Notes: generated from the sequence alone by a model not told the origin. Shown: positions 838 through 50,029, counted from the stretch's first letter. The stretch: 64,000 nucleotides of DNA from Phycisphaerales bacterium (GCA_022446795.1 JAKVBX010000005.1:37085-101084); one strand, 5' to 3'. Translations and numbers: made by a program.

Positions 838-911
838 TGGGCGATGCCGGACTCGAACCAGCGACTTCCTCGGTGTAAACGAGGCGCTCTAGCCAACTGA
901 GCTAATCGCCC
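838..911 (-). tRNA. tRNA-Val (anticodon TAC)
   Basis: The reverse complement GGGCGATTAGCTCAGTTGGCTAGAGCGCCTCGTTTACACCGAGGAAGTCGCTGGTTCGAGTCCGGCATCGCCCA folds as a 74-nt cloverleaf. It has a 7-bp acceptor stem, a D arm GCTC/GAGC, an anticodon stem CCTCG/CGAGG with loop TTTACAC, and a T arm GCTGG-TTCGAGT-CCGGC. CCA is not encoded. Confidence 0.92.
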
Positions 912-1386: not shown

Positions 1387-4300
1387 TCAGCGCGAGAGCC
1401 GTTGTGCCTGCTGAAGCAGCCACGCTTCTTCCGCGAGACCCCACGGTCGGAACTTCTCGACCTGGCCCAGGTCTTCGCTGTGAAGCAGTGCGCGGTTGGA
1501 GCCGAGGCGGCCCGCGGCGGTCGAGTCGATCACCTGGCTGGAATCCATCTGGCTCATCTGGAACAGCACGCGGTTTTCGAACTCGCGTTGTGCGCCCCGA
1601 TCGAGGAACCGTGACAGGTTGTTGACGGTGTCGATCCAGGTGATGACATGCATTCCCACGGCAGGTCCGTCGCGGAGGATGGAGGCGACGATGGCATCGG
1701 GCTTGGGTGGTCCATCGTCGCTCGAGAACGAGAAGTCGTCCTCGTTGCGGCGGAGTGCTCGCCAGTTCTGCATGGCCGTGATGAAGAGGTAGAGCGGCGG
1801 ATGGTCCGACCGGGGGTTCTCCAGTCGCCGTCCCAGTTCGGCATGCAGGGCCACCAGGGTGTCTTCCAGTTCGTGCTCCTTGACGCTGCGGTGCTCGTGC
1901 GGGAGCGCGTCGGCGAGTCGCTCGAGGCGACCATTGGTGGGGCCGAAGCCGTCGAAGAGCGCAAATGTCGGGTCGCCATGCGGGGTCGCCTGTGCCGCCA
2001 GGGCGAGCATGACGGATTCGAGGATCGCGGCGGCGGACTCCTCGTGTTGTCCCAGCAGGAGGAGGTTGGCGCCGGTGCGGCGGGCGAGGCTGACGGTGGT
2101 GGGTGGCTTGATGGCGACGGCATCCCCCAGCCACGCGTGGGATTGATCGCTGTCAGCAGCCGGCGAGGCCAGCAGTGCCTCCAGGGGCTGGCAGTCAGCG
2201 AGGTCGGCGGCAATGTGTCCCCGGAACACGAATGGCGTATGGGTACGGCCTTGTTCACTGGCCCTGTGATGGAGGTCCTTGAGGCAGTCATCCCGCTGGG
2301 CCTCGTCGAGCCAGACGATCTGGAAGGGATTGTTGCCCTCGTACTTGCCACCGGCATCGTTGTAGATCGCATCCCCGGGTCGGGTCAGCAGTCTCGCGGC
2401 GGGGTTGTCTTCGGCGAGGATCAGATACGAGTCGGCTTCGGAACACTGCAGCGCAATGCGGACGCCCATCTGACCCATGGTGCTTCGCGCGAGCGAATAC
2501 ACGCCATCGAGTGTCTGCGATCCCAGCAGGGCATGCATGCCGAAGGCTCGGCCCTGGCGAACCAGTCGATCCAGCAGCAGCGATGCTTCCTGTGCGACCA
2601 TGTCATCTTCCACGAAGATCTCCTGGAACTCGTCGACGACCAGCAGAACGCGGGGCAGGGGCTCGCCGCTGGCGGCCCGGTAGCCCTCGAGATCCTGCAC
2701 CCCCAGCTTGCGGTAGAGCTCGCCGCGTCGCTTGAGTTCGTCGTCGATGCGCTGCAGCACGCTGAGCCCGAACTCACGATCGGACTCGATGGCGATGACC
2801 TGGGCATGGGGCAGCGCGTGGGTGTCGTAGACCTGGAACTCGACACCCTTCTTGAAGTCCACGAGGTAGAACTCGATCTCGTCCGGGGAGTGCCACATCG
2901 CGAGATTGGTGACCAGCACGTGCATCAGGGTGGACTTGCCGGACCCGGTCTTGCCCGCCACGAGGGCATGCTGGGCCGTGCCTCGCCCAAGTCGCAGATC
3001 CTGTGTCCGCTTGGCGCCGTGTTGTCCCAGGGCCACGCGGATCTCCCGGGCGGTGGAGCCGGTCCAGATCTCATCGGGCCGCGGCTTGATGAGATCGAAT
3101 GGCACCTCGACGCGATGCGTCGCCTCCGAGGCATCTCGCAACTTGCGGAGGATCGTGTTGGCCAGGGCATCGGGCATGTCCTCGCCGAGCCGGATGGGCA
3201 GGTCCTCGAATCCATTGTTCCGGAGGTGCCAGCCGTTGTCGCTGCTTCGAAGCACGATCATGCCATCATGGATGTCCGTCTCGTGGAGTCCCTGTGGCAA
3301 CGGGCGTCGCAGGTCACGCAGCAGGATCGCGTAGACGCCACAACGGGTTCCACTTCGCAGGATGCTCATGAGTCGCTTCGTGGCCTGCTCGTTCAGGTTG
3401 CCCGGGAAGTCGGCCATCACCAGGAAGCGATACGGCTCGGCGATCTGTCCCGCGTGACGGTTGTAATCGTCGATGGTCTCGTACTCGTTCCGCAGGTATC
3501 GCTGGATGACATCCTCCATGTGGGATGTCAACTGGAACAACTGTTCCTCGATGTGCTTGGACTCGCTGTAGATCTGCTCCAGGACCTGGCCTTCGTCTAC
3601 GTCGGCCAGGTGCATGAAGCCTGCGAAACTCTCGCCCAGCCCGACCGGGTCAAGCAGCGTGAGCCTTGCCTTGCCCGGTGGAACGGCCGCGAGCAGTCGC
3701 AGGACGGTCGAACGGGCAGCGGCCAATGCTTCATCTCGAGTGTCGGGTTCGAACTCGATGATCGTCGAGACCTGGCTGGGCAGGCTCAGCAGGAGCGGCA
3801 GCGTGGCCAGCGGGGGCCCCTCCCAGGGGAAGGGCGTGTTGTTGGAGAGGGGATCGGTAATGGTGGCGATGTTGAAGTCCACCTCGGCCAGGGCCGCCAT
3901 GACCTCGGTCGAGGTCCCCGGCTCCCAGGCCTGCCATGAGGGGTTGTCCCACTGCAGCGGCGAGACATCACGAAGTCTCGTGAGGAGGTCGAGGTCTCGG
4001 CAGAAGCCCATGCTGGCCTCGTTCCATTCCATGGTCAGCCGGCCGCGGATCTCCATGACCGCTGACTCGGCGGCCTGCTGTTCATCCTGCGTTTCCGAGT
4101 CGAGCCGGTGCACCGCCTGCTCGTATCGCTGCTCGATCCGCTTCAGCTGAGTGTTCTCATCCCGTTCCTGCTGTTCCATCTCGGCCGCGTGCCGCTGTCG
4201 GACGTTCTCGATCTTCTCGTCCAACTTGGATTCCAGGCGATCGTGGAACTTCTGTCGGCTGGGCTCGACATGCCCCACCCGTGGTTCCGCGCGATCCCGC

Positions 4301-5058
4301 ACGCCACTGACGACTTGATCGCGTGTCTTTTCCGCCTGGTTGATGATGGCGTCGTGCTTGGACTCCAGCGCCTTGATGACGTCGGCGGCCTTGCCTTCCA
4401 GTGCTTTCACACGGGCACGATCCACGGCGGCATTCTTTCGCAAGCGGGCCCGCCAACTGATCCTGGCCAGCGGCCGCATGGCGCTTGGCGGTGCGTACTT
4501 GGACTGCAACTCCCGGAGCTCCTCGAGGATCTGAGCGGGCTTGATGGTGCCGGCATCAGTCTCGGGAGCCGTGCCCGCGTCGGCGGGGATCAGATCATCC
4601 AATTCCCGGGCCAGGCGCTCGACGGCTTCGTACTGCTTGCGGGCGTCCCGGAGCGCCCGCTTGGCGGCGTCGACCTTGCCCTCGTAGAGGCTCTCGGCCA
4701 TCCATTCGTTGTCCGCGGCCTTGCTCTCGAACCGCTTCAGCTTGCGATTGGCGGCGTGGTCAATCTGTTGTTCGATGGCCTCCGCCTGCTTTTCGAATCG
4801 CACCAGGTCCTCGTCACGCTTCTCGTCGATGCCCCGGCGTGCGACCCGGGCGTCATGCCGGGCTTCCTCCATGTCGCGATCCCGTGTCTCCTCCAACTGC
4901 GTTCGCTCCTCGCGTTGACGCAAGGTGGCGGCGGAGGACCGGCGTTCGAATTCCGACTGCGCGCCGTGGAAACTGTCCTGGAGGCGCAAGGCCGTCTGTT
5001 TCAGGCCGACGACCAGTTCCATCAGGCGTTGGAGTGGTGGGGTTGGAGGCGACGTCAT
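1387..5058 (-). CDS. FtsK/SpoIIIE-family ATPase with a long N-terminal coiled coil and no TM anchor (EccC/EssC-like)
   Basis: Walker A VAGKTGSGKST is encoded near 2929-2955 and Walker B LLVVDEFQE near 2626-2646. Flanking degenerate P-loop-like modules are LLDPVGLGESF near 3640 and LLLLGQHEESAA near 2050. The first roughly 335 residues are charged heptad-like sequence. I prefer the start ATG at 5058, which has GAGGA 7 nt upstream. The longest ORF starts at 5154. Confidence 0.9.
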   Translation of the reverse strand: MTSPPTPPLQRLMELVVGLKQTALRLQDSFHGAQSEFERRSSAATLRQREERTQLEETRDRDMEEARHDARVARRGIDEKRDEDLVRFEKQAEAIEQQIDHAANRKLKRFESKAADNEWMAESLYEGKVDAAKRALRDARKQYEAVERLARELDDLIPADAGTAPETDAGTIKPAQILEELRELQSKYAPPSAMRPLARISWRARLRKNAAVDRARVKALEGKAADVIKALESKHDAIINQAEKTRDQVVSGVRDRAEPRVGHVEPSRQKFHDRLESKLDEKIENVRQRHAAEMEQQERDENTQLKRIEQRYEQAVHRLDSETQDEQQAAESAVMEIRGRLTMEWNEASMGFCRDLDLLTRLRDVSPLQWDNPSWQAWEPGTSTEVMAALAEVDFNIATITDPLSNNTPFPWEGPPLATLPLLLSLPSQVSTIIEFEPDTRDEALAAARSTVLRLLAAVPPGKARLTLLDPVGLGESFAGFMHLADVDEGQVLEQIYSESKHIEEQLFQLTSHMEDVIQRYLRNEYETIDDYNRHAGQIAEPYRFLVMADFPGNLNEQATKRLMSILRSGTRCGVYAILLRDLRRPLPQGLHETDIHDGMIVLRSSDNGWHLRNNGFEDLPIRLGEDMPDALANTILRKLRDASEATHRVEVPFDLIKPRPDEIWTGSTAREIRVALGQHGAKRTQDLRLGRGTAQHALVAGKTGSGKSTLMHVLVTNLAMWHSPDEIEFYLVDFKKGVEFQVYDTHALPHAQVIAIESDREFGLSVLQRIDDELKRRGELYRKLGVQDLEGYRAASGEPLPRVLLVVDEFQEIFVEDDMVAQEASLLLDRLVRQGRAFGMHALLGSQTLDGVYSLARSTMGQMGVRIALQCSEADSYLILAEDNPAARLLTRPGDAIYNDAGGKYEGNNPFQIVWLDEAQRDDCLKDLHHRASEQGRTHTPFVFRGHIAADLADCQPLEALLASPAADSDQSHAWLGDAVAIKPPTTVSLARRTGANLLLLGQHEESAAAILESVMLALAAQATPHGDPTFALFDGFGPTNGRLERLADALPHEHRSVKEHELEDTLVALHAELGRRLENPRSDHPPLYLFITAMQNWRALRRNEDDFSFSSDDGPPKPDAIVASILRDGPAVGMHVITWIDTVNNLSRFLDRGAQREFENRVLFQMSQMDSSQVIDSTAAGRLGSNRALLHSEDLGQVEKFRPWGLAEEAWLLQQAQRLSR

Positions 5059-5095
5059 GCGGTGGTCCTCGATGCCGGATCCTAAACCGTTCCGG

Positions 5096-5371
5096 CTAGG
5101 CTGTCTCCCCGCCCTCGTCCGGTGTGGATCGCCGCTGGCTGTAGGGGGCGTCATCGTGGGTCGCCAGCACTCGGACCGCTTCCTCCATGACCTCGTGCAT
5201 CTGTTCCAACGCCGTCATGGCCGTGCGGACATCGTGGTGGAGGTTGCGGATGAAGCGTTGCTCGATTCGTTGGGACACGGGGTCGTCCCACGCCTCTCGC
5301 AACTGGTCCCAGGCCCGGGTCAGTTGCTGCGCCGCCGACATCACTTGTCGATTCGCAATCATCAGGCTCAT
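5096..5371 (-). CDS. small helical WXG100-like protein, W-x-D variant (91 aa)
   Basis: The motif LREAWDDPVSQRIEQRF parallels the hairpin motif of the 94-aa protein. The sequence looks all-helical with a polar C-tail. Its start overlaps the upstream stop by 4 nt (ATGA). Confidence 0.6.
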   Translation of the reverse strand: MSLMIANRQVMSAAQQLTRAWDQLREAWDDPVSQRIEQRFIRNLHHDVRTAMTALEQMHEVMEEAVRVLATHDDAPYSQRRSTPDEGGETA

Positions 5372-6003
5372 GGCGTGTCGTCCTCGGCAGGCTCGGGGGT
5401 CTCGGTAGCGGGTTCATCATCCTCGGTGGACTCTTCGCTCTCATCGATCTCGGTGCCACGGGAGAACGGGCTGATGGTCTCGCCCATCTCGCGGGCCCAG
5501 GCGTCGAAATCGGCCGGTGGGGTGGGCAACTTGAGGTATGAGTCCAGGTGCTTGGTGAGCACGTTGAGTCTCGCGACGAGCAGTTCCATGTCGGCTTCCA
5601 GCATGTTCGTCAGTGGTTGGAGCCCGGCTCTCAGCAGGTTGGACTGGTGGTCGATTCGGCGGCTCCACTTCTTGAGCAGTTCGAGCCGCTCTTCTGCTTC
5701 ACGCTGCTTGGCCCGCGCACGTTCCATGGCCTTTCGCTGTTCAAAGAACATCTGGGCGGTGTCATTCGGACGGGAGATCCGGGCCCGTTCCAGGTCGCTG
5801 CGGGCATTGTCGAGCGCGGCTTGCGCCTTGCGGATGCGTTGTCGCCAGACCAGCGGCTGCTCGGACTCGACCCAGTGCTGCATTCGCCGGACATCCTGGT
5901 AGACGCCGCTGACGCCACGCATCGTGCGAGAGCGGAATTGGACGACGGCGGCGCGGAACGTGTCAATCGCCTTGACCGAGGTGATCTTGGCCTGCTTGCT
6001 CAT
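5368..6003 (-). CDS. helical/coiled-coil protein with an acidic C-terminal tail (211 aa), function unknown
   Basis: A good-length ORF between the two WXG-like genes. The first roughly 165 residues look helical and rich in R/K/E/Q. The tail reads EIDESEESTEDDEPATETPEPAEDDTP. Confidence 0.7.
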   Translation of the reverse strand: MSKQAKITSVKAIDTFRAAVVQFRSRTMRGVSGVYQDVRRMQHWVESEQPLVWRQRIRKAQAALDNARSDLERARISRPNDTAQMFFEQRKAMERARAKQREAEERLELLKKWSRRIDHQSNLLRAGLQPLTNMLEADMELLVARLNVLTKHLDSYLKLPTPPADFDAWAREMGETISPFSRGTEIDESEESTEDDEPATETPEPAEDDTP

Positions 6004-6010
6004 GACGATA

Positions 6011-6295
6011 TCACCCCTGGTCGAGGTATTCCTGCGCCTTGTCCGCCTTGCGGATCAGGTATGGGACATGGTCAGTCGTGGCCTTGTTGAAGCGGACGAG
6101 CGAACGCATGGTCTGTTCGAACTCCTCCTGGAACTTCCGCTGCTCCTGGTCCCGCCAGGTTTCGCCGAGGGCGTTCAGCCGGGCGTTGATGTGATTCATG
6201 CCCTTCTCGAGTTCCTCGCGGAATCGAGCCAGTTCCCGGGCAAACCGCTTTACTTCTTCTGGTTCGACGATGACCTTGGCCATGTCTGCTCCCAT
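6011..6295 (-). CDS. WXG100 (ESAT-6/EsxA)-like protein, W-x-D variant (94 aa)
   Basis: MAKVIVEPEEVKRFAREL...ALGETWRDQEQRKFQEEFEQ resembles S. aureus EsxA from memory (IKMSPEEIRAKS...ANWEGQAFSRFEEQFQQ). The length of about 95 aa fits the family. An alternative start is at 6283. Confidence 0.8.
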   Translation of the reverse strand: MGADMAKVIVEPEEVKRFARELARFREELEKGMNHINARLNALGETWRDQEQRKFQEEFEQTMRSLVRFNKATTDHVPYLIRKADKAQEYLDQG

Positions 6296-6331: not shown

Positions 6332-6856
6332 CTAGGGCTGCCGGGCCTCATCACCGGGAAGATCGGTGCCTGTCGCATCGCCGGTCGCATTGCTGTTGCC
6401 CGATCCCGACCCGTATTGGAACAGGCGCGTCCAGGTTCCCTGGAGTTCGCCCAGCACCGTGCCACGCAGGACGACATGGCGGGCCATCGTGATGTCGACG
6501 CTGCCTTCGATCACGGTGCCGTCGGTGAACTCCAGGTCACCCCCGAGGAAGGCCACGTCGCCGGTGACCGTTCCCGAGATCGTGGCCTCATGCGCGGAGA
6601 TGGCCACGCTGGCCTGGGCGCCCTGCTCGAGGAACAGGGCTTCGCGGGCGTAGAAGTAGGTGTTGGTCGTGACCGGCTCCGTGACGGTGATGGTGTTGCC
6701 CTCGACGAGTTCGTAGCCCTGCTCGAGATACTGGCGTTCGTAGCCGGAGACCGTCGACCAGATCTGCCAGAAGCCATAGAGCACGGTGGCGCCACCGGTC
6801 GCGACCAACGCCAGCAGGACCCAGCAGCCCAGTTGCGATCGTCCACGCGTCGTCAT
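6332..6856 (-). CDS. membrane-anchored bactofilin-like (polymer-forming beta-helix) protein
   Basis: The N-terminal TM segment is LGCWVLLALVATGGATVLYGFW. It is followed by repetitive ATISGTVTGDVAFLGGDLEFTDGTVIEGSVDITMARHVVLRGTVLGEL, typical of the bactofilin/CcmA fold. The start ATG at 6856 overlaps the upstream stop (ATGA). Confidence 0.45.
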   Translation of the reverse strand: MTTRGRSQLGCWVLLALVATGGATVLYGFWQIWSTVSGYERQYLEQGYELVEGNTITVTEPVTTNTYFYAREALFLEQGAQASVAISAHEATISGTVTGDVAFLGGDLEFTDGTVIEGSVDITMARHVVLRGTVLGELQGTWTRLFQYGSGSGNSNATGDATGTDLPGDEARQP

Positions 6857-7401
6857 GGCGAGGCACTCCCTCGTTGGCTGTTTCGGCGGCGCAGCAGCCA
6901 CTGGTTCGCCACGATCAGCAGGATTGCGACGACAGGCAGCAGGAACCAGATCCACAACTGCAACGCCGGCGGGATCGGTTCACCGGCCTCCATCTGGAAG
7001 TTCACCCGTGACACCAGGTCACCTCGCATGGCCGCGGCATCGACCGACCACGGGCCAGGCGTGGGGAGTTCGAACTTGGCGCTGTACAACAGCCGGTTCG
7101 ACGCGGCTTCCCGGGTCGCCTCGACCAGGATGGACGAGACCTCGGTTTCCGGGTGTTCCAGCATCAGCGAGACCGTGGCGTCGAGTACCGGCGTATCGTT
7201 CTGGGCCTGCTGGACCAGGACCGACAGGTCCACTGGGCCAGCTCGCAGCGGCGTGGGCTCGCTGAATACCGTGAGTCGCCAGGGCCCGTCGATGGCGGAA
7301 GCTCGAACGATGCCACTGTCAGCCATCACGCCGAGCGGGATCGCGACCAGGAGCAGCGTGATGAGCAGGATCGGGCGGGACATGGATGGTGAGCCTATCA
7401 C
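6853..7401 (-). CDS. FixH/YtkA-like exported protein with a C-terminal TM anchor
   Basis: The signal peptide is MSRPILLITLLLVAIPLGVMA. The beta-rich domain reads GPWRLTVFSEPTPLRAGPVDLSVLVQ...FELPTPGPWSV. The C-terminal TM is LWIWFLLPVVAILLIV. It sits directly after the CcoG/FixG-like gene. An alternative start is at 7383. Confidence 0.4.
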   Translation of the reverse strand: MIGSPSMSRPILLITLLLVAIPLGVMADSGIVRASAIDGPWRLTVFSEPTPLRAGPVDLSVLVQQAQNDTPVLDATVSLMLEHPETEVSSILVEATREAASNRLLYSAKFELPTPGPWSVDAAAMRGDLVSRVNFQMEAGEPIPPALQLWIWFLLPVVAILLIVANQWLLRRRNSQRGSASP

Positions 7402-7410
7402 GACGCCGGT

Positions 7411-9753
7411 TCAGGATGGCATGGTTCCACGCATCTCCATGGGCTGGAACACGATCCAGGCGGCGGTCAGCCACAGCGCCAGGCTCACGATGGCCCATGG
7501 CAGCAGGGCGGCACATTCGCGGCGGAACGATGTGGTCAATTCACGGGCCAGCCGGTACTGCAACCAGAGCGTGACCACCAGGCCCACGTCGAGGATCAGC
7601 AGCTCCAGGGGCAGCAACCAGGTCGGGGCCGGGCCGCAACAGGAGAGGGCCCAGGCCGGTTCTCCCAGGGCGGTGGTGCCGAGGTCAGCCGCGGCCCGCT
7701 GGACGCTGGGAATGACCGTGCCCCAGCTGGTGAACAGGTGGAAGAGCATGTGAACCAACCACATGGCGAAGCCCAATGGAACGAGTGTCAGTGTGAAACG
7801 CGTTGTGACCTGTTTCCAGGTGGCCCCGGTGGCGGAGAGGGCCTGGGAAGCGCTGCCGGCTGCGGCCAGGATCAGCGGCGGCAGGACGGCGATGCTGATC
7901 AGCAGGGAGGCCGAGATGACCCACCAGTCCGAGGTCATTCCCAGCGATGCGGCCAGGTCACCCTGCCACTGCAGGACCGGGCCCACCATGCCCAGGGCGT
8001 TCGCGAAGGCACCGAAGACCAGGACCGCCACCAGTGCCGTGACATCCCATCGATTGGACAGTCGTCGCAGCGATGACCGCCAGCCGTCGTCCAGCAGTTC
8101 GGTGCCATGGCGTCGCGGCATGATGCCGACGTTGTCATGTGGGCACGCGTGAACACAGTCCAGGCACCAGGTGCAGTCCAGCCCGCCGTTCTTCTTGGGC
8201 AGGAAGAGATCCAGTTCGCACCCACGGTTTTCTTCATTGCCGCGAATGCAGTCATAGGTCGTGCACGAGTGGCAGGTGTCCATGTCGCGCACACGGACTT
8301 CCAGCGGGGAGGCCATGGACTGCACGAAGTGGAACTGGCCGATTGGGCAGATGTACTTGCAGAATGACGCCCCACGGAAGAACCCATCGATCACCATGGC
8401 TATGGCGAAGTAGGTGATCACGATCCAGGCGGTCCACCAGGGGGTGTCCCAGAGGCTGAAGGCCTCGTAGGCCCAGAGGAAGAGCACCATCAACGCCACG
8501 GCCAGCCACTTGCTCCTGAGTATCCGCGGCCACCGCAAACGACCACCGCCCAGGCGACGGGCCAGTTCCCGTGGCAGCATGAACGGACAGGCAAAGCAGA
8601 ACAGGTTGCCGGCGACGAGGAGGGCCAGCACGACGAATCCCCGCCAGTGAATCCACGGCAGGACACCGGCCAGGTTCATCGGGCTGTGCTGCGGGCCCAG
8701 CAATCCGTCGATCACCACGGCCGCGGCCAGCAGCAGCATGACCGTCTGCATGCCCCGGCGGAAGAGCCGATGTCGGAACACGCGGCCCAGTCCACGCAGC
8801 CGCAGCAGGTCGAAGCCTGTCCGTGGGGACGAACTGGCGGTGCCGGCACCAACTGGTGACGGGCTTCCGCCAGCCAGCACGGGGAGGGGCAGGCTTCCGC
8901 CGGGTGTTGCCGGTCGCAACGCCTGGCCCGGACGCGCGAGCCTGGGGCTCAGCAGTTCGCGGATGATGATTGCCACCGGAACCAGGAAGATGATCGACCC
9001 CGGGACCCACATGATGGCGCCGGCGATGGCCTGATCATCCAGGGCGGTCAGTCCCAGGAGGCGAGGCGCCGACTCGTAGGTCGGGTAGATCACGACTTCC
9101 CAGAAGCAGAAGGCGGCCGAGAAGACGGTGTTGGAGACATCCGCCACGAGCAGGTAGATGATCATCGACCACCGCGGCCAGACCGGTGTGCTGGGCCAGG
9201 GTTGAACGACCGGCCACCAGAACAGCATGGATGCGAAGAGGAAACAGGCGTGCTCGACCTGGTGCCAGCCCTGGCTTCGGAGCCCCAGTTCGTACAGCGG
9301 CGGCCAGTGCCATGCCCAGGTCATGATGATGAAGACCAGCAGGCAGGTGACGGGATGGCCGAGCCCACGGAAGAAGGTCCACAGGGCGGGCCATGCGAGG
9401 AATGGTCCCAGCCAGTGCTTGCGGATGACGTGAGGCAGCCCACGCAGCAGTGGTATGCCCGGTGCCCCGAGCCAGATCAACGGTGGGGCGATCATCATGA
9501 GCAGCAGGTGCTGGGTCATGTGGGCCTGCAGGAGCAGGTTGCCCATGGCGTCGAGTGGTGAGGCAATGGCGAGCCAGATCACGGCGAGTCCGCCGGCATA
9601 GCTGACCAGTCGCCAGCGGGGAAATCGGTCCGGCATCCGGCGATGCAGACCTCGCCAGCCGCGCCAGTACAGACAGAGGCTGACGAGCGAGACCAGGATG
9701 ATCACCGGCTCCAGCGTCCAGGACTGCATCAGGGCTTGTGCAGCGGGATTCAC
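7411..9753 (-). CDS. fusion protein: caa3-type cytochrome oxidase assembly factor CtaG plus a CcoG/FixG-like 4Fe-4S polyferredoxin membrane protein
   Basis: The N-terminal roughly 290 aa resemble Caa3_CtaG (YWRGW...SPLDAMGNLLLQAHMTQHLLLMMIAPPLIWLG). The C-terminal part has FCFACPF and CKYICPIGQF membrane motifs, a ferredoxin cluster CHSCTTYDC...CTWCLDCVHACP, and additional TM helices. Confidence 0.75.
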   Translation of the reverse strand: MNPAAQALMQSWTLEPVIILVSLVSLCLYWRGWRGLHRRMPDRFPRWRLVSYAGGLAVIWLAIASPLDAMGNLLLQAHMTQHLLLMMIAPPLIWLGAPGIPLLRGLPHVIRKHWLGPFLAWPALWTFFRGLGHPVTCLLVFIIMTWAWHWPPLYELGLRSQGWHQVEHACFLFASMLFWWPVVQPWPSTPVWPRWSMIIYLLVADVSNTVFSAAFCFWEVVIYPTYESAPRLLGLTALDDQAIAGAIMWVPGSIIFLVPVAIIIRELLSPRLARPGQALRPATPGGSLPLPVLAGGSPSPVGAGTASSSPRTGFDLLRLRGLGRVFRHRLFRRGMQTVMLLLAAAVVIDGLLGPQHSPMNLAGVLPWIHWRGFVVLALLVAGNLFCFACPFMLPRELARRLGGGRLRWPRILRSKWLAVALMVLFLWAYEAFSLWDTPWWTAWIVITYFAIAMVIDGFFRGASFCKYICPIGQFHFVQSMASPLEVRVRDMDTCHSCTTYDCIRGNEENRGCELDLFLPKKNGGLDCTWCLDCVHACPHDNVGIMPRRHGTELLDDGWRSSLRRLSNRWDVTALVAVLVFGAFANALGMVGPVLQWQGDLAASLGMTSDWWVISASLLISIAVLPPLILAAAGSASQALSATGATWKQVTTRFTLTLVPLGFAMWLVHMLFHLFTSWGTVIPSVQRAAADLGTTALGEPAWALSCCGPAPTWLLPLELLILDVGLVVTLWLQYRLARELTTSFRRECAALLPWAIVSLALWLTAAWIVFQPMEMRGTMPS

Positions 9754-9789
9754 GGGTCAAATCGTACCGGCTGGACGGCCAGCGGCCCG

Positions 9790-11259
9790 CTAGAAGACCG
9801 GCGGATCGGCATCCTCGGTTTCGCGAGGTGTCATGGAGAATCCGGCAGCGGGCTCGTGCTCCCAGTCCGGGTGCATGGTGTCCAGGAAGGACACGACCGC
9901 CGTGACGGCCTGTGGAGACAGGTGCTTGCCGTAGGCGGGCATGTTGCCGCCGCCCTGGATGACCTGTCGGATCAACTGGTCGGTGTTGAGCCGGGTCGCC
10001 ACATCATCCAACTCTGGGCCACGGTGACCGCCACGTCCCTTGAGGGCATGGCAGTTCCGGCACTGCTTGTTCTGGACCACCAGGGCGCCCTGGAGTTCCA
10101 GTGGGGTACGTCCCTTGACGTACGCCGGTGGCGTGGGGATGCCGCTCCAGGCATCCATCACCGGTGACCAGGGCGAGGTGTACCCGAGGTAGGTCAGGGA
10201 GGAGAGCGTCAGCATCAGGAAGATGATGAAGATGACCGAGAACGGTCGTCGCTTCCAGTGCTTCTCGCCGCGTCCGGAGATGAACGGCAGCAGGATCAGG
10301 ACGGTGGCCGCCAGGATCGGGAAGCCGATGATCAGGAACGTCTCCATGTACGGAGGCAGCAACGCGAGCACGGCAAAGATCGACTGGAAGTAGAAGTCGG
10401 GTCTCGGGGCCGTGTCGATCAGCGTTGGATCCGGTTTGCCGGAGGGGCCGGATGGTCCGAAGAGACTGGCGCACACGAACACCAGGAAGAGCACCAGCCC
10501 GCAGGCGACCAGGTCCCGGGCGGCAGCGTTCGGGAAGAACGGCATGCCACGCTTCTTGACCTCTCGTTCGTAGGTCTCGAAGTAGGTCTTCTTGTTGACG
10601 TGGTAGCCAGGCGTCGGCGTCTCGTTGATGCCGCACTTGATGACCAGCAGCAGGTGAAGCCCGATGAGGCCGATGAGGGCGCCCGGGATGACGAAGACGT
10701 GCAGGGCGAAGAAGCGCGACAGGGCTTCCGAGCCGATGATGGCGCCGCCGAGCACGAAGTGGACCAGTTCCGGACCAACCCAGGGCACGCGACCAACCAT
10801 GGCCATGCCCACGCTCAGGCCCCAGTAGGCATCCTGGTCCCATCGCAGAACCTGCCCGGTGAAGCCCATGGCGAGCGTGCACAGGAACAGGCCCAGCCCG
10901 ACCAGCCACGTCAGCTCCCGCGGGAACTTGAATGCGCCGTACAGGAAGACCTGGATCATGTGGATCGACATGAAGGCGATCATCAGGTGCGAGCCCCAGA
11001 CGTGCATGCCGCGGAGGAACCAGCCCATGTACTGCTCGTAGGTCATGTACATGAGGGATTCCCAGGCCTGGCCACCGGAGGGGACGTAGGCCAGGGCGAG
11101 GCAGATGCCCGTCGAGATCTGGAGGATGAAGATCGTCAACGTCATGCTGCCGAAGACGTACCACCACTTGGCACTGCGCGGGACCGAGTGCGTCGCACTG
11201 GGCCCGATCACCTCGGCGAGGTGCAGTCGGCTTTCGAACCAGTTGAGGAACTTCTTCAT
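9790..11259 (-). CDS. cytochrome b (bc-complex) fused to a C-terminal monoheme cytochrome c
   Basis: WWYVFGSMTLTIFILQISTGICLALAYVP...RGMHVWGSHLMIAFMSIHMIQVF is typical of cytochrome b. The C-terminus carries CRNCH plus GGGNMPAYG. Confidence 0.9.
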   Translation of the reverse strand: MKKFLNWFESRLHLAEVIGPSATHSVPRSAKWWYVFGSMTLTIFILQISTGICLALAYVPSGGQAWESLMYMTYEQYMGWFLRGMHVWGSHLMIAFMSIHMIQVFLYGAFKFPRELTWLVGLGLFLCTLAMGFTGQVLRWDQDAYWGLSVGMAMVGRVPWVGPELVHFVLGGAIIGSEALSRFFALHVFVIPGALIGLIGLHLLLVIKCGINETPTPGYHVNKKTYFETYEREVKKRGMPFFPNAAARDLVACGLVLFLVFVCASLFGPSGPSGKPDPTLIDTAPRPDFYFQSIFAVLALLPPYMETFLIIGFPILAATVLILLPFISGRGEKHWKRRPFSVIFIIFLMLTLSSLTYLGYTSPWSPVMDAWSGIPTPPAYVKGRTPLELQGALVVQNKQCRNCHALKGRGGHRGPELDDVATRLNTDQLIRQVIQGGGNMPAYGKHLSPQAVTAVVSFLDTMHPDWEHEPAAGFSMTPRETEDADPPVF

Positions 11260-11279
11260 CGGATCTCGTTCGCCTGGGG

Positions 11280-11834
11280 TCAGGCGGTCTGCTGCAGGGA
11301 GGGAAGACGGCCGCCCTTGATCTGGAGTTGACCGTCAACGATTCGGGTTTCGTACTCGTAGAGGCCACGCGGGGGCGGGCCGGCGGCATGGGAGCCGTCG
11401 GCGTAGTACACGCCGCCGTGGCAGGGACACATGAACAGCTTGGACTCGGGGAACCACCGGACGGGGCAGCCCAGGTGGGTGCAGTTGATGGCGAACACGG
11501 TGAAGTCGCCGCCGTCCTTGCGACGGACCCAGCACGGGATGTCAGCGGTGTAGCCGTCCCATGGAACGCGGAACGGGTTCACGAAGGTCGCCAGTCGCGT
11601 CTCGCCCTTGGGGAAGTCGTCGGCCTTGCCCAGGGTGATCCACTTCTGCCACCCGGTTCCACGCCAGGAGTTGAATACGTATCCGATGATCGGCAGGGCG
11701 ATCAACAGGCCCGCGACGACATTGATGCCGGCACCGAGCCAGAAGAGGAATGTCCGACGCGGCGGCTCCGGCTTCGGGCCTTCGCCAAGCATCCTGACGT
11801 CGGGGGCTTCCTTGTAGTTGAAGTTCTCAGCCAT
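11280..11834 (-). CDS. Rieske [2Fe-2S] subunit of the bc-type complex
   Basis: Contains CTHLGCPV...CPCHGGVY Rieske boxes and an N-terminal TM helix. Confidence 0.9.
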   Translation of the reverse strand: MAENFNYKEAPDVRMLGEGPKPEPPRRTFLFWLGAGINVVAGLLIALPIIGYVFNSWRGTGWQKWITLGKADDFPKGETRLATFVNPFRVPWDGYTADIPCWVRRKDGGDFTVFAINCTHLGCPVRWFPESKLFMCPCHGGVYYADGSHAAGPPPRGLYEYETRIVDGQLQIKGGRLPSLQQTA

Positions 11835-47342: not shown

Positions 47343-48275
47343 ATGAGCGGTATCCTACTCAGCGACAGGGAGCACCGAATGTCGACGAAGCCTTCTCTCC
47401 AAACACCCTCTGGTGCACTGGGGCATGCGGCCGACCGCCTGTGCGAGTGCGTGCGACGGGTGGGTTCGCCGGTCTGCGTGGGCCTTGATCCCGTTCTCGA
47501 ACGCCTGCCGGGCGATCTGGCGTCGTCATCGACATCACCCACGTCCGCGATCGAGACCTTCTGCCTGGGCGTCCTGGATGCCATCGCCGGGCAGGTCGGG
47601 GTCGTCAAGTTCCAATCCGCCTGCTTTGAGCGTTACGGCTCGGAGGGCGTCGCCGTGCTGGAACGGTCTCTCGCTGCGGCGAGGGAGCGTGACCTGATGT
47701 CCATCCTCGATGCCAAGCGGGGCGACATCGGCATCTCCGCAGCGCATTACGCTGCGGCGGCAACCGCCTGTGGCTCGGACTGGGTCACGATCAATGGTTG
47801 GCTGGGCGAGGATGGAATCGCCCCGTTCCTCGACGGTGGGATCGGCGCCTTCGTGCTGGTCCGGACGTCGAACCCCTCCGGCGAGACCATCCAGAACCAG
47901 TCCCTGGTGGATGGTCGGACGGTTGCGGAGTCGATGGGAGACCTGGTCACGTCGATGGGGGCGGACCATGTCGGCGAGCATGGCTACAGCACGCTTGGCG
48001 CGGTGATTGGCGCCACGCACCCAGCGGAACTGGAGGGCTTCCGATCGCGACTTCCCGGGACCATCTTCCTGCTGCCGGGCTACGGCGCGCAGGGAGGCAC
48101 CGCCGAGGATCTGGCGTCGTGCTTCGATGACAACGGCCTGGGGGCACTGGTGACGGCGAGCCGCAGCGTGATCTATGCCGGTGAAGGCGGGTCAGGCGGC
48201 TGGACCGATGCGGTCCGCCAGGCGGCGACCGAACTGGCTGACGATGTCGGCACTGTCGCGGGGATGCGGTCATGA
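47343..48275 (+). CDS. pyrF: orotidine 5'-phosphate decarboxylase (type 2)
   Basis: Contains [19 protein letters not shown] and [12 protein letters not shown]. The start is 47343 or 47379; the upstream extension overlaps the DUF971 gene and is rejected. Confidence 0.85.
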
Positions 48276-50029
48276 CGGCTGGCGCCCGTGGAGGACTGCC
48301 GGGGTGGCGCGTCATCATCGTGATGAGTTGCTTCGGGATCGTGCTGGCCCTCCCGTTCATTTTCCGCGTCTCGCAGGGCGAGGACCTGGCGGATGCCCGC
48401 CGCGTCATCATCATCAGTCCGCACAATGAACAGATTCGCTACGAGTTCGGCCGAGGATTCGATCTCTGGCACCAGGCGAAGTTTGGTGAACCAGCCCGCG
48501 TGGACTGGAGCACCCCGGGCGGGACGTCCGAGATCCGCAAGATGCTTCAATCGGACTGGACCGCGGCCCTCAAGCGGGGTGAGCGGCCCGGCGGCAATGC
48601 CGACCTCGTCTTTGGTGGCGGATCGTATGAACACGGTCAATTCAAGCGAGGCATCAAGCTGGTTCTCGATGATCGCACCGGCGAGCAGGTGCGAGCCTGG
48701 GTGCGCGGCATCGGCGGAACAATGGAGCCGGCACTGGAGTCCCTGCTCTCGGGGGGCGACGCCACCGATGACGTGGCGGTCGAGGTGCCCGGTATCACCG
48801 CCACCGTGTCGGCGGACGAAAACGCGGCCGGGCGGTGGTCCGTGTCCGTGACGTCGACGATCAGTGTTCCCGCCGGCATGCCCACGGCCATGCTTCAGAA
48901 GATCTACGGGCGTGACCAGGTGGCGGGGACACCACTCTGGGATGCCGACCAGTACTGGCTGGGAACGGCGCTCTCGGCCTTCGGCCTCATCTACAACAAT
49001 GATCTGCTGCGGGAACTGGACGTCGCCCCGCCGACCTCGTGGTCGGACCTGGGGAACCCGGACCTGCGGCAGGAAGTGGCGTTGGTCAACCCGGCCCAGT
49101 CCGGTTCGGTGACCACGGCGTTCGAGACGATCCTGAAACGACGGGACTGGACCCCGGGATGGTGGGTCCTTCGGCGTGCGGCGGCCAATGCTCGTTACTT
49201 CTCCGCGTCATCGCTTCGGGCGCCGACGGATGTCGCCCAGGGAGACGCGGCGATGGGCGTCTGCATCGACTTCTTCGGTCGCTTTGAATCACAGTCGCTG
49301 CGGGATCGTGGGGCCGGTGACCGCGTGGGGTACATCGATCCACCGGGCGAGACGATGTTGGACCCGGATCCCATCTCGCTCCTGATGAATCCACCCGATC
49401 CCGAGATGGCAGGCCGGTTCATCGAGTTCACCCTGTCACCGCAAGGGCAATCACTCTGGCAGTTCGCCCCCGGGGCCGGGGACAACGGAATGGGGCCGGA
49501 GCGATTCGCCCTGCGACGCATGCCCGTCTCGGACGAGTTGTACCGGGACCACTTCGGCCAGTTCGTCGACCAGGTGGACCCCTTCGTCAATGCCGAGCCG
49601 CCCCCGTACAACGATCGGAACATGCGGTCCTTCATCGCGATCGTCTTCCAGGCGATGGCGATGGATGTGACGGTGGATCTCGAGGCGGCCTGGGAGGCCA
49701 TCGTGAACCACCCGTCCTATCCGCCCGGTGGTCAACTGGTGACGGCCGCGGATGTCGAGGATTCGGAACTGGCGCAGATGCTGACGTTGTTCGACGCGAT
49801 TCCCGACGTGCCGGGGCCGGATGGACAGACGTTCACGCTGGCGACGCCGGAGGGCCGCGCCAAGATCAAGGCCGGCTGGCTCTACGGCGGCTGGAAGGGC
49901 GAGGGGCTCTGGTCGGCTCAGGCGGATCCTCGTCATGTCCTGCGTCGGCTGCTGGGTGACCAGATGGCCGCGAACTACCGCGAGGTTGTTCGCCTGGCCG
50001 AGGACCGAACGACCGGGAGCACGAACTGA
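48272..50029 (+). CDS. extracellular solute-binding protein (ABC-type, iron/polyamine-like)
   Basis: It has an N-terminal TM/signal and the early motif [14 protein letters not shown]. The size and alternating pattern fit a periplasmic binding protein. No cognate permease or ATPase gene is adjacent. Confidence 0.5.

What the first reader, a model, noticed from the sequence alone, without database searches (positions are those of the whole stretch)
1387..5058. Unusual ATPase architecture: a roughly 335-residue coiled coil replaces the TM anchor, and only the middle of three P-loop modules is intact
Seen: residues 1 to about 335 (nt about 4050-5058) are almost purely charged and helical, for example EERTQLEETRDRDMEEARHDARVARRGIDEKRDEDLVRFEKQAEAIEQQ. 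No hydrophobic stretch of 18 residues or more occurs anywhere in the protein. Three NTPase-like modules follow at a spacing of roughly 240-300 aa. Module 1 has a degenerate loop (LLDPVGLGESF, nt about 3640) with FLVMADFP in the Walker B position. Module 2 has canonical Walker A GKTGSGKST (nt 2929-2955) and Walker B LLVVDEFQE (nt 2626-2646). Module 3 is degenerate (LLLLGQHEESAA, nt about 2050, and LYLFITAMQ). Established: EccC/EssC proteins have two TM helices, a degenerate DUF/ATPase-like domain and then three ATPase domains, and substrates dock on the last one. Inference: this protein looks like DUF plus D1 plus a single regulatory or substrate-binding domain. The coiled coil could tether it to another structure or drive oligomerisation.
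Basis: partly seen in the sequence, partly recalled or inferred. Interest (0 to 1): 0.65.

Follow-up and report, generated by a model that had tools for sequence, protein, structure and literature searches.

The report
Anchorless EccC-like ATPase of planctomycetes
This gene encodes a relative of the motor ATPase of type VII protein secretion, from a large and apparently undescribed planctomycete family that sits next to small ESAT-6-like genes; this marine lineage has cleanly lost the membrane hairpin that almost all its relatives carry, so it is unclear how, or whether, it still works at the membrane.

Summary
Window 1387-5058 (-) encodes a 1223-aa protein with no transmembrane (TM) segment, about 365 N-terminal helical residues, and three FtsK-like modules. 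Only the middle module keeps Walker A and B.

The interpretation needs correcting. The helical region does not replace a TM anchor. About 97% of relatives have the same two long helices with a two-helix TM hairpin between them. Helix lengths are nearly invariant: 103 and 144 residues between conserved anchors. The family has 831 clusters (50% identity) in Planctomycetota and Lentisphaerae.

The window protein and a small marine Phycisphaerae clade lost only that hairpin, about 47-49 residues at aa 198/199. Two other lineages also lack it, probably independently.

Module 2 resembles EccC D1. Module 3 is a degenerate P-loop domain. Module 1 is a DUF-like degenerate domain, but its Walker-A-equivalent is IIEFEPDTRDEALAA, not LLDPVGLGESF.

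The gene ends a conserved four-gene cassette: WXG100, a 200-aa helical hairpin, a 70-92-aa WXG-like protein, then the ATPase. No other known type VII secretion (T7SS) components are nearby.

Best reading: a minimal T7SS-like system of PVC (Planctomycetes-Verrucomicrobia-Chlamydiae) bacteria, here as a soluble or peripheral variant. I found no description of it in the held literature.

The parts
1387..5058 (-). Gene for the 1223-aa EccC/EssC-like FtsK/SpoIIIE-family ATPase, the TM-less variant (stop codon at 1387-1389).
   Evidence: ORF list and translation. Pfam PF01580 at 93 bits. NCBIfam EccCa 123 bits, EssC 96 bits, FtsK only 31.5 bits. PDB best hit is EccC 4nh0 at 1.4e-35. Homologues are full length from residue 1.
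4591..4986 (-). Long helix A (aa 25-156) with a hendecad-like hydrophobic stripe.
   Evidence: AF2 helix at model residues 2-133. Periodicity 3.65, z 12.9. The distance from L16 to W119 is 103 residues in 91 of 94 relatives.
4465..4590 (-). Tip region (aa 157-198): a P/G-rich linker plus a short helix (aa 174-187). Its 3' end, between nt 4465 and 4464 (aa 198/199), is where relatives carry the two-helix TM hairpin.
   Evidence: Alignment A1 shows a gap of about 60 columns here against TM-bearing relatives. The span L184 to R200 is 16 residues here against a median of 65. No hydrophobic window reaches 1.6.
3964..4464 (-). Long helix C (aa 199-365). It starts with the basic segment ARISWRARLRK, which is juxtamembrane in relatives, and leads into module 1.
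   Evidence: AF2 helix at model residues 173-342. Periodicity 3.65, z 11.8. The distance from R200 to W345 is 144 residues in 84 of 94 relatives and 145 here.
3064..3903 (-). Module 1 (about aa 386-665): a degenerate, DUF-like P-loop-fold domain. It has no Walker A; IIEFEPDTRDEALAA sits in the P-loop position and FLVMADFP in the Walker B position.
   Evidence: hhalign module 1 against module 3: probability 95%, E 3e-8. The AF2 strand/helix order matches module 2. 61 columns are at least 90% conserved. A sequence profile finds nothing in the PDB.
2224..3063 (-). Module 2 (aa 666-945): the only catalytic FtsK/SpoIIIE ATPase domain, D1-like. Walker A is at nt 2929-2955 and Walker B at nt 2620-2646.
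   Evidence: Pfam and NCBIfam hits. phmmer to 4nh0 D1 residues 267-492. GK/RTGSGKS is invariant in the family.
1390..2223 (-). Module 3 (aa 946-1223): a degenerate P-loop domain. GQHEESAA sits in the Walker A position and LYLFITAMQ in the Walker B position. It is the candidate substrate or regulatory domain.
   Evidence: hhalign against module 2: probability 96%, E 1.5e-9 over 204 columns. There is a weak, in-register match to the EccC5 D2 P-loop region, E 0.29. Foldseek aligns three domains.
5096..5371 (-). 91-aa WXG100-like helical protein (turn motif W-D-D), third gene of the cassette. It has a C-terminal extension of about 20 aa in the window and L001 compared with three TM-bearing loci.
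   Evidence: TIGR03930 at E 1e-3, below threshold. Conserved in loci L001, L003, L005 and L007. Its start overlaps the stop of the upstream gene by 4 nt (ATGA).
5368..6003 (-). 211-aa protein, second gene of the cassette: a long two-helix hairpin (aa 10-77 and 82-158) plus a disordered acidic tail.
   Evidence: AF2 model at pLDDT 77. No specific fold match, best E 0.03. Conserved next to the ATPase in every cassette-bearing locus examined.
6011..6295 (-). 94-aa WXG100 protein (turn motif W-R-D), first gene of the cassette.
   Evidence: Pfam PF06013 at 39.1 bits, above the cut-off of 27.3. Conserved in every cassette-bearing locus.

Best explanation
The gene encodes a divergent member of the EccC/EssC branch of FtsK/SpoIIIE ATPases, the motor of type VII (ESX/WXG100) secretion. 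It belongs to a large family specific to Planctomycetota and Lentisphaerae.

Shown:
- The family architecture is helix A, a variable linker, a two-helix TM hairpin, helix C, a DUF-like degenerate module, one catalytic D1-like module, and one degenerate C-terminal module.
- The gene is the last of a conserved four-gene operon: a WXG100 protein, a helical hairpin protein of about 200 aa, a WXG-like protein of 70-92 aa, then the ATPase.
- The window protein belongs to a marine Phycisphaerae clade in which the TM hairpin alone was deleted. Both ruler-like helices and all catalytic motifs are intact.

Inferred:
- Module 2 hexamerises and hydrolyses ATP.
- Module 3 and/or module 1 recognise the helical-hairpin proteins encoded upstream, by analogy with EsxB docking on EccC D3.
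- Helices A and C pair antiparallel into a stalk about 20 nm long, whose tip carries the membrane hairpin in relatives.
- In this lineage the protein is soluble, or only peripherally attached through the basic, Trp-containing tip segment or through a partner. It therefore cannot form a membrane pore by itself, and it probably still processes or delivers the same WXG100-type clients.
For: - Homology: PF01580 at 93 bits. EccCa, EssC and EccCb are the top NCBIfam hits, and FtsK scores only 31.5 bits. The PDB sequence search puts EccC 4nh0 first at 1.4e-35, then EccC5 and YukB, ahead of FtsK at 3e-12. Foldseek gives 4nh0 at E 2.6e-25 over 974 columns.
- Module homology: hhalign results and matching secondary-structure order.
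- Cassette: the same four genes occur in at least five different genomic contexts (L001/L003/window, L005, L007, the P0066 locus, L023), with clear sequence conservation. The WXG100 gene passes the Pfam threshold.
- TM loss: a hairpin is present in 113 of 120 closest homologues and about 123 of 125 further representatives. Alignment A1 shows a clean gap.
- Orthology: the closest TM-bearing relative, P0007, shares the window's synteny of cytochrome bc, CtaG, two small genes and the cassette.
- Selection: helix lengths are invariant at 103 and 144 residues although the mean majority-residue frequency in those columns is only 0.31. TM-less genes are intact in at least six related lineages at 56-75% identity.
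Against: - No secretion or localisation data exist for any family member.
- No other T7SS membrane component (EccB/D/E, EssA/B, EsaA, MycP) was found in the neighbourhoods examined.
- These bacteria have an outer membrane, and nothing here explains how it would be crossed.
- Scores are far below the NCBIfam equivalog cut-offs (123 against 509 bits).
- Without TM helices the protein cannot be a translocon, so the secretion reading is weakest for exactly this variant.
- The antiparallel pairing of helices A and C rests on one AF2 monomer model with pLDDT 52-76 in the middle of the helices, and I could not inspect its coordinates.
- Membrane binding by the tip segment is speculative: its hydrophobic moment is unremarkable.
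- The Tautonia orthologue has no annotated WXG100 neighbour.
Confidence: 0.6

Rival explanations
1. The system is not a secretion system, at least in TM-less lineages. The ATPase would be a cytoplasmic remodelling or unfolding motor that assembles, disassembles or positions polymers or complexes of the helical-hairpin proteins encoded upstream. The long stalk would act as a spacer or scaffold.
For: The TM hairpin has been lost two or three times independently while the rest stays under selection, which suggests pore formation is dispensable. No accessory membrane components are encoded nearby. The rigidly fixed helix lengths look like a structural ruler. The 211-aa protein is a generic long hairpin with an acidic tail.
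Against: About 97% of the family keeps the TM hairpin. All characterised relatives of this ATPase branch that are linked to WXG100 genes are secretion motors (established knowledge; PMC11217815). No polymer-forming family such as PspA/ESCRT-III was detected in the small proteins.
Confidence: 0.25
2. It is a DNA translocase: the cell-division FtsK of the organism, or a conjugative or TraB-like DNA pump, as some database names suggest ('cell division protein FtsK', 'DNA translocase FtsK').
For: It has an FtsK/SpoIIIE domain. Some sources use FtsK names. FtsK motor domains are Foldseek hits at about 1e-10.
Against: The FtsK equivalog scores 31.5 bits against a cut-off of 1566. No Ftsk_gamma domain was reported. 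EccC and EssC hits are far stronger than FtsK hits. Two of the three modules lack P-loops. The gene is tightly linked to WXG100 genes, and no relaxase or T4SS genes are nearby.
Confidence: 0.03
3. It is part of an anti-phage defence or other conflict system built around an FtsK/HerA-type ATPase.
For: PADLOC gives SspH at 8.7e-26 and mad8 at 1e-19. The mid protein of locus L023 carries a borderline Imm33-like domain.
Against: The PADLOC hits cover only the generic P-loop domain, aa 687-903. No Ssp/Dnd or other defence partners are nearby. The cassette lies in conserved housekeeping contexts, next to the cytochrome bc and oxidase-assembly genes in the window, L001, L003 and L024, rather than in variable islands. 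The three small proteins have no PADLOC hits.
Confidence: 0.05
4. The missing TM hairpin is an artefact (assembly or frameshift error) or marks a decaying pseudogene.
For: Most close relatives come from metagenome-assembled genomes.
Against: The same in-frame deletion with the same boundaries occurs in the window, in P0001-P0005, and in the loci L001/L009 (which encodes P0004), L010 and L011. These come from different samples and oceans and share 53-75% identity. The ORFs are intact at 1223-1235 aa, with invariant Walker motifs and unchanged helix lengths.
Confidence: 0.02

Closest known systems
EccC (actinobacterial T7SSa; for example T. curvata EccC 4nh0/4n1a, mycobacterial EccC5 7np7/7b9f)
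   Same: It belongs to the same branch of FtsK/SpoIIIE ATPases, and EccC is the best sequence and fold match. Both have a degenerate ATPase-like domain before a catalytic D1-like domain, further P-loop-fold domain(s) after it, and genetic linkage to WXG100 genes. Family relatives also have a two-helix TM hairpin upstream of the ATPase modules.
   Different: There are three P-loop-fold modules instead of four (DUF plus D1-D3), and only one Walker A instead of three. There is an N-terminal helix of about 200 aa before the TM hairpin and a helix of about 170 aa after it, instead of a short stalk. The TM hairpin is absent in the window protein. No EccB/D/E or MycP genes are present. The host has a diderm PVC-type envelope.
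EssC/YukB (Bacillota T7SSb; 4lya, 5fv0, 9qks)
   Same: Both have a cytoplasmic N-terminal domain ahead of the two TM helices, a DUF, then ATPase domains, and both are encoded with WXG100 proteins.
   Different: EssC has two FHA domains at its N-terminus rather than a long helix, and three Walker-A-bearing domains. It needs EssA, EssB, EsaA and EsaB. None of these is found here.
EccCb1 (the soluble half of the split ESX-1 EccC)
   Same: It is precedent for a T7SS FtsK-like polypeptide without TM helices (6j19/6jd4/9jv8 are hits).
   Different: EccCb1 holds only D2-D3 and docks on the membrane-bound EccCa1, which holds the TM helices, DUF and D1. Here the TM-less protein holds the DUF-like and D1-like modules itself, and no membrane-bound partner ATPase is encoded nearby.
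FtsK DNA translocase
   Same: It shares the RecA-like FtsK/SpoIIIE motor fold, including the DS-containing motif (FQMSxxDSS here), with Foldseek E about 1e-10.
   Different: There is no gamma domain and no four-TM N-terminus. The motor unit is a tandem of degenerate modules. The FtsK equivalog scores 31.5 bits against 1566.

Membership tests
T7SS ATPase EccC/EssC (TIGR03924/03925/03928) | An FtsK/SpoIIIE P-loop domain with Walker A and B that is closest to EccC/EssC rather than FtsK. | tested here: met
   PF01580 at 93 bits. EccCa 123 bits, EssC 96 bits, FtsK 31.5 bits. PDB EccC 1.4e-35 against FtsK 3e-12.
T7SS ATPase EccC/EssC (TIGR03924/03925/03928) | The score reaches the curated equivalog cut-off. 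| tested here: not met
   123 against 509 bits, 96 against 778, and 76 against 347.
T7SS ATPase EccC/EssC (TIGR03924/03925/03928) | Three tandem nucleotide-binding domains (D1-D3), each with a Walker A motif. | tested here: not met
   There is one Walker A, in this protein and in about 245 relatives. Module 3 has GQHEESAA in the P-loop position.
T7SS ATPase EccC/EssC (TIGR03924/03925/03928) | A degenerate ATPase-like (DUF) domain between the membrane stalk and D1. | tested here: met
   Module 1 matches module 3 at hhalign probability 95%. It has the same strand/helix order as module 2 in the AF2 model. The three-domain Foldseek alignment supports it.
T7SS ATPase EccC/EssC (TIGR03924/03925/03928) | Two TM helices N-terminal to the ATPase modules. 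| tested here: not met
   The maximum KD-19 score is 1.35 and no hairpin is present in the window protein. A hairpin is present in about 97% of family relatives. A dedicated predictor such as DeepTMHMM was not available.
T7SS ATPase EccC/EssC (TIGR03924/03925/03928) | Encoded next to WXG100 substrate gene(s). | tested here: met
   The WXG100 gene at 6011-6295 scores PF06013 39.1 bits against a cut-off of 27.3. A second WXG-like gene lies at 5096-5371. Both are conserved in every cassette-bearing locus examined.
Complete T7SSa or T7SSb apparatus | Accessory membrane components: EccB/EccD/EccE/MycP, or EssA/EssB/EsaA. | tested here: not met
   Pfam and NCBIfam scans of neighbours in the window, and the precomputed Pfam families in nine related loci, show none. 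Only the neighbourhoods were searched, not whole genomes.
Complete T7SSa or T7SSb apparatus | ATPase-dependent export of WXG100 proteins. | not testable with these tools
   This needs secretome or fractionation experiments.
FtsK DNA translocase | A four-TM N-terminus, a linker, the alpha/beta motor, and a gamma (KOPS-binding) domain, with an equivalog-level score. | tested here: not met
   NF007615 scores 31.5 bits against 1566. No gamma-domain hit appears in the Pfam scan. There are no TM helices.
WXG100 (PF06013), for the neighbouring 94-aa protein | A helix-turn-helix protein of about 100 aa with a central W-x-G turn, scoring above the Pfam threshold. | tested here: met
   39.1 bits against 27.3. 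The turn motif is W-R-D, conserved as TW[RK]DQE in all five orthologues aligned, not W-x-G.

The most novel reading that the evidence does not exclude
[quoted passage not shown] Its EccC-like motor has a single active ATPase domain and hangs from the membrane on a rigid, length-invariant antiparallel helical stalk of about 20 nm. Because the membrane hairpin has been lost repeatedly, as in this window, the ancestral core activity of the EccC-plus-WXG100 pair may not require the ATPase itself to form the membrane channel. Soluble variants would then either dock on an unknown channel or act entirely in the cytoplasm.
Probability: 0.35. Interest if true: 0.8.

Novelty: new variant of a known kind. 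Interest (0 to 1): 0.62.

Why it matters
Type VII secretion is treated as a system of Actinomycetota and Bacillota. Surveys of WXG100 proteins and of T7SS variants report essentially only those phyla plus a few Chloroflexi (PMC3935865; PMC11217815).

A family of more than 800 sequence clusters in PVC bacteria would widen the phylogenetic range of the system. It pairs an EccC-like motor with WXG100 genes and nothing else recognisable, so it offers a stripped-down version for asking what the ATPase-WXG100 core does by itself.

The natural TM-less variants amount to a ready-made experiment on whether the motor must be the membrane pore. The strictly conserved helix lengths suggest a structural ruler whose purpose is unknown. 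The family is currently annotated only as 'FtsK/SpoIIIE domain-containing protein' or, misleadingly, as 'cell division protein FtsK'.

Tried and rejected
- Sequence-profile searches of module 1 and module 3 against the PDB found nothing significant. Module 3 reached only E 0.29 to the EccC5 D2 P-loop region, and module 1 gave only spurious hits. Their P-loop nature rests on hhalign within the protein and on the AF2/Foldseek result.
- hhalign of module 1 directly against module 2 was not significant (probability 0.4%). The link goes through module 3.
- The 211-aa protein gave no family hit in Pfam, NCBIfam or PADLOC, and no significant fold match (best E 0.03, to generic long helical hairpins such as chemoreceptors and F-BAR domains). 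Its identity stays open.
It was rerun with a shallow alignment of 13 sequences.
- The hydrophobic-moment test for an amphipathic membrane-binding helix at the tip was unremarkable: 0.45 against a background of 0.30 +/- 0.17. The W/R-rich tip is therefore only a suggestion.
- The promoter and terminator scan was uninformative.
- Literature searches for T7SS, WXG100, EccC or FtsK together with Planctomycetes, Planctomycetota or other PVC terms found nothing relevant. Sutcliffe 2011 is not held.
- Considered and rejected: the longer ORF start at 5154, because it overlaps the upstream gene and homologues start at the 5058 equivalent.
- Considered and rejected: the two membrane-protein genes at 6332-7401 as a substitute anchor. 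The closest TM-bearing relative has the same two genes (L003), and cassettes in other contexts lack them.
- I could not read the coordinates of the AF2 model, so the pairing of helices A and C was not checked directly.

Full report
**1. What is at the coordinates**

Window 1387-5154 (-) is one open frame. The ATG at 5058 is the likely start. The extra 32 codons overlap the upstream 91-aa gene, which ends at 5096. Every close homologue starts with the same MTSxxxPPLxR. The product is 1223 aa. The window has 63-67% G+C. The nearest relatives are metagenome-assembled genomes of marine Phycisphaerae in the phylum Planctomycetota.

**2. Check of the observation**

- **No TM segment.** The best 19-residue Kyte-Doolittle window scores 1.35. 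The only long uncharged run, aa 414-434, is Pro-rich and forms beta strands of module 1 in the model.
- **Helical N-terminus.** An AlphaFold2 model of aa 24-1223, built on 71 aligned sequences, has pLDDT 83 and pTM 0.64. It places helices at aa 25-156, 174-187 and 196-365, then three alpha/beta modules with the same order of strands and helices.
- **Amphipathic helices.** The two long helices have a hydrophobic period of 3.65 residues, which is hendecad-like rather than a 3.5 heptad. The signal is well above shuffles: z is 4-6 on this sequence and 12-13 on the family-averaged profile. 'Coiled coil' is therefore acceptable in the broad sense.
- **Three FtsK-like modules.**
  - Pfam detects only one FtsK_SpoIIIE domain, at aa 692-848.
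  - A profile-profile comparison matches module 3 to module 2 at 96% probability, E 1.5e-9, over 204 columns. In that alignment GQHEESAA lies on GKTGSGKS and LYLFITAMQ lies on LLVVDEFQE.
  - The same method matches module 1 to module 3 at 95% probability, E 3e-8.
  - Foldseek aligns 974 columns of the model to the three ATPase domains of T. curvata EccC (4nh0, E 2.6e-25) and about 600 columns to the two-domain D2-D3 structures 4n1a and 4lya.
- **One correction.** In module 1, LLDPVGLGESF aligns with FALFDGFGPTNG of module 3, which in turn aligns with the strand after the P-loop helix of module 2 (FYLVDFKKGVEF). The P-loop position of module 1 is IIEFEPDTRDEALAA.

**3. The family, and the key correction**

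The protein has hundreds of full-length relatives of about 1300 aa, annotated at most as 'FtsK/SpoIIIE domain-containing protein'. A search with only the family-specific part, aa 1-665, finds 831 clusters (50% identity) at E <= 1e-30. Named sources include Isosphaeraceae (Paludisphaera, Tautonia), Phycisphaerales, Tepidisphaeraceae and Lentisphaerae. Every member inspected has exactly one Walker A at a P-loop position.

Most relatives do have a membrane anchor. In 113 of the 120 closest homologues, and in about 123 of 125 further representatives, two strongly hydrophobic segments lie at about aa 205-290, in the middle of the helical region. The alignment shows a clean gap of about 60 columns in the window protein between ...SKYAPPSAMRPL (aa 198) and ARISWRARL (aa 199).

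The helices on either side behave like rulers:
- From the N-terminal anchor to the invariant Trp119 there are 103 residues in 91 of 94 sequences.
- From the Arg after TM2 to the invariant Trp345 there are 144 residues in 84 of 94, and 145 here.
- This holds although the mean majority-residue frequency in those columns is only 0.31.
- The span that contains the hairpin is a median of 65 residues in relatives and 16-18 in TM-less proteins.

So the helical region does not replace the anchor. The anchor alone was excised.

The TM-less state is shared by the window, by P0001-P0005, and by the Phycisphaerae MAG loci L001/L009 (which encodes P0004), L010 and L011, at 53-75% identity. The closest TM-bearing relative, P0007 (50% identity over 81% of the query; 56% over the ATPase modules), sits in the same genomic context as the window, so the loss happened in place.

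Two other TM-less proteins are not close to this clade:
- P0066 has TM-bearing nearest neighbours at 66-69% identity.
- P0184 is only 32% identical over aa 1-665, no closer than TM-bearing relatives.

They probably lost the hairpin independently.

**4. Surroundings**

On the same strand, immediately upstream, lie three genes:
- a 94-aa WXG100 protein (PF06013, 39.1 bits against a cut-off of 27.3; turn motif W-R-D);
- a 211-aa protein modelled as a long two-helix hairpin with a disordered acidic tail, with no specific fold match;
- a 91-aa protein with sub-threshold WXG100 similarity (turn motif W-D-D).

The four genes are tightly packed. Gaps are 7 nt and 37 nt, and one junction is a 4-nt ATGA overlap. 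The same order (WXG100, about 200 aa, 70-92 aa, ATPase) recurs in at least five unrelated genomic contexts, with and without the TM hairpin. Sequence conservation across these loci is clear. One orthologue, from Tautonia, has no annotated WXG100 neighbour.

No EccB/D/E, MycP, EssA/B or EsaA homologue was seen in any neighbourhood. Further upstream in the window lies a respiratory cluster: Rieske protein, a fused cytochrome b/c, a CtaG fusion and two small membrane proteins. It is shared only with the closest relatives and is not part of the cassette.

**5. What it is**

Sequence and fold both place module 2 closest to EccC D1. The matches are TIGR03924 positions 408-653 and 4nh0 residues 267-492. 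EccC, EssC and YukB come well ahead of FtsK and of conjugative coupling proteins.

Module 1 has 61 columns at least 90% conserved and module 3 has 42, so both degenerate modules are under strong selection.

It fails several defining features of EccC/EssC: three Walker A motifs, the equivalog scores, the TM helices and the accessory components. I therefore file it as a new variant related to that family, not as a member.

**6. How it probably works**

Shown: the homology, the architecture, the cassette, and the derived loss of the TM hairpin.

Inferred by analogy with EccC/EssC (established knowledge; PMC11217815; the 4n1a entry title 'in complex with a signal sequence peptide'):
- Module 2 forms the hexameric motor.
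- Module 3 and/or module 1 bind the helical-hairpin proteins encoded upstream.
- In ordinary family members the TM hairpins of the hexamer form the membrane passage.

The AF2 model suggests that helices A and C run antiparallel. The model is confident where the conserved N-terminus and the Trp345 region lie (pLDDT 84-91), consistent with these packing together next to module 1. The tip, where the hairpin sits in relatives, would lie about 20 nm away. I could not inspect the coordinates, so this is an inference.

In this lineage the protein must be soluble or peripheral. The tip keeps the basic juxtamembrane segment. In sister sequences that segment is rich in Trp and Arg, for example PWRWLKYRLSLWSRSK. 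The hydrophobic-moment test was not distinctive, so membrane binding is only a suggestion.

The main rival is that the pair of ATPase and WXG-like proteins has a cytoplasmic role, at least in TM-less lineages. DNA translocation, anti-phage defence and artefact are unlikely.

**7. Novelty**

I found no paper in the held library that describes a T7SS-like or WXG100-linked system in Planctomycetota or other PVC bacteria. Published surveys report WXG100 and T7SS essentially from Actinobacteria, Firmicutes and a few Chloroflexi. Sutcliffe 2011, which may mention other phyla, is not held.

My verdict:
- It is a real and unusual architecture, and a new variant of a known kind.
- The 'replacement' interpretation should be changed to 'loss of the membrane hairpin from a family that normally has both'.

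Noticed in passing
window 5096-5371 (-), compared with L001, L003, L005 and L007: In the two TM-less-clade cassettes aligned (the window and L001), the third cassette protein has a C-terminal extension of about 20 aa (VLATHDDAPYSQRRS...). The three TM-bearing loci aligned lack it and end in RDCE. In L024, also in this clade, the gene is similarly long (96 aa). The independently TM-less P0066 and P0184 loci have the short 70-aa form, so the link to TM loss is uncertain.
   Followed up: partly
L023 3694-4755 (+): In the locus of the TM-less homologue P0184, the middle cassette protein is 353 aa and carries a borderline Imm33-like domain at its C-terminus (26.3 bits against a cut-off of 27). This suggests the disordered tail of this protein can be replaced by a globular domain.
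   Followed up: partly
window 6011-6295 (-) and orthologues: The WXG100 proteins of this cassette have W-[RK]-D instead of W-x-G at the turn, and a conserved C-terminal motif H-x-P-[YF]-L-x-[RK]-K-A...Y-L-x-Q-[RG]. This motif matches neither the YxxxD/E nor the HxxxD/ExxhxxxH signal. Motif-based WXG100 surveys would miss them.
   Followed up: partly
window 838-911 (-): A tRNA-Val (TAC) gene lies about 475 nt downstream of the ATPase stop codon. Both ARAGORN and Rfam find it.
   Followed up: yes
window 49722-49809 (+): ARAGORN calls a tRNA-Ser (CGA) inside a 585-aa ORF (48272-50029). Rfam finds nothing there at its gathering threshold, so this is probably a false positive.
   Followed up: partly
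window 6332-7401 (-): Two small membrane-protein genes lie between the CtaG fusion and the cassette. One has a weak bactofilin-like match, and the other has weak YtkA/FixH-like matches and a C-terminal TM segment. They occur only in the loci that share the respiratory-gene context (L001, L003, L024) and are not part of the cassette elsewhere.
   Followed up: partly
window 7411-11834 (-): This is a respiratory cluster. It has a Rieske protein, a cytochrome b fused to a c-type cytochrome domain (489 aa), and a 780-aa protein whose N-terminal third is Caa3_CtaG, followed by a large membrane region with weak 4Fe-4S-like matches.
   Followed up: no
window aa 1104-1120 of the ATPase (about nt 1699-1749): A family-conserved acidic loop, EDDFSFS, follows the Walker-B-equivalent strand of module 3. 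The AF2 model leaves it unstructured. Its function is unknown.
   Followed up: no
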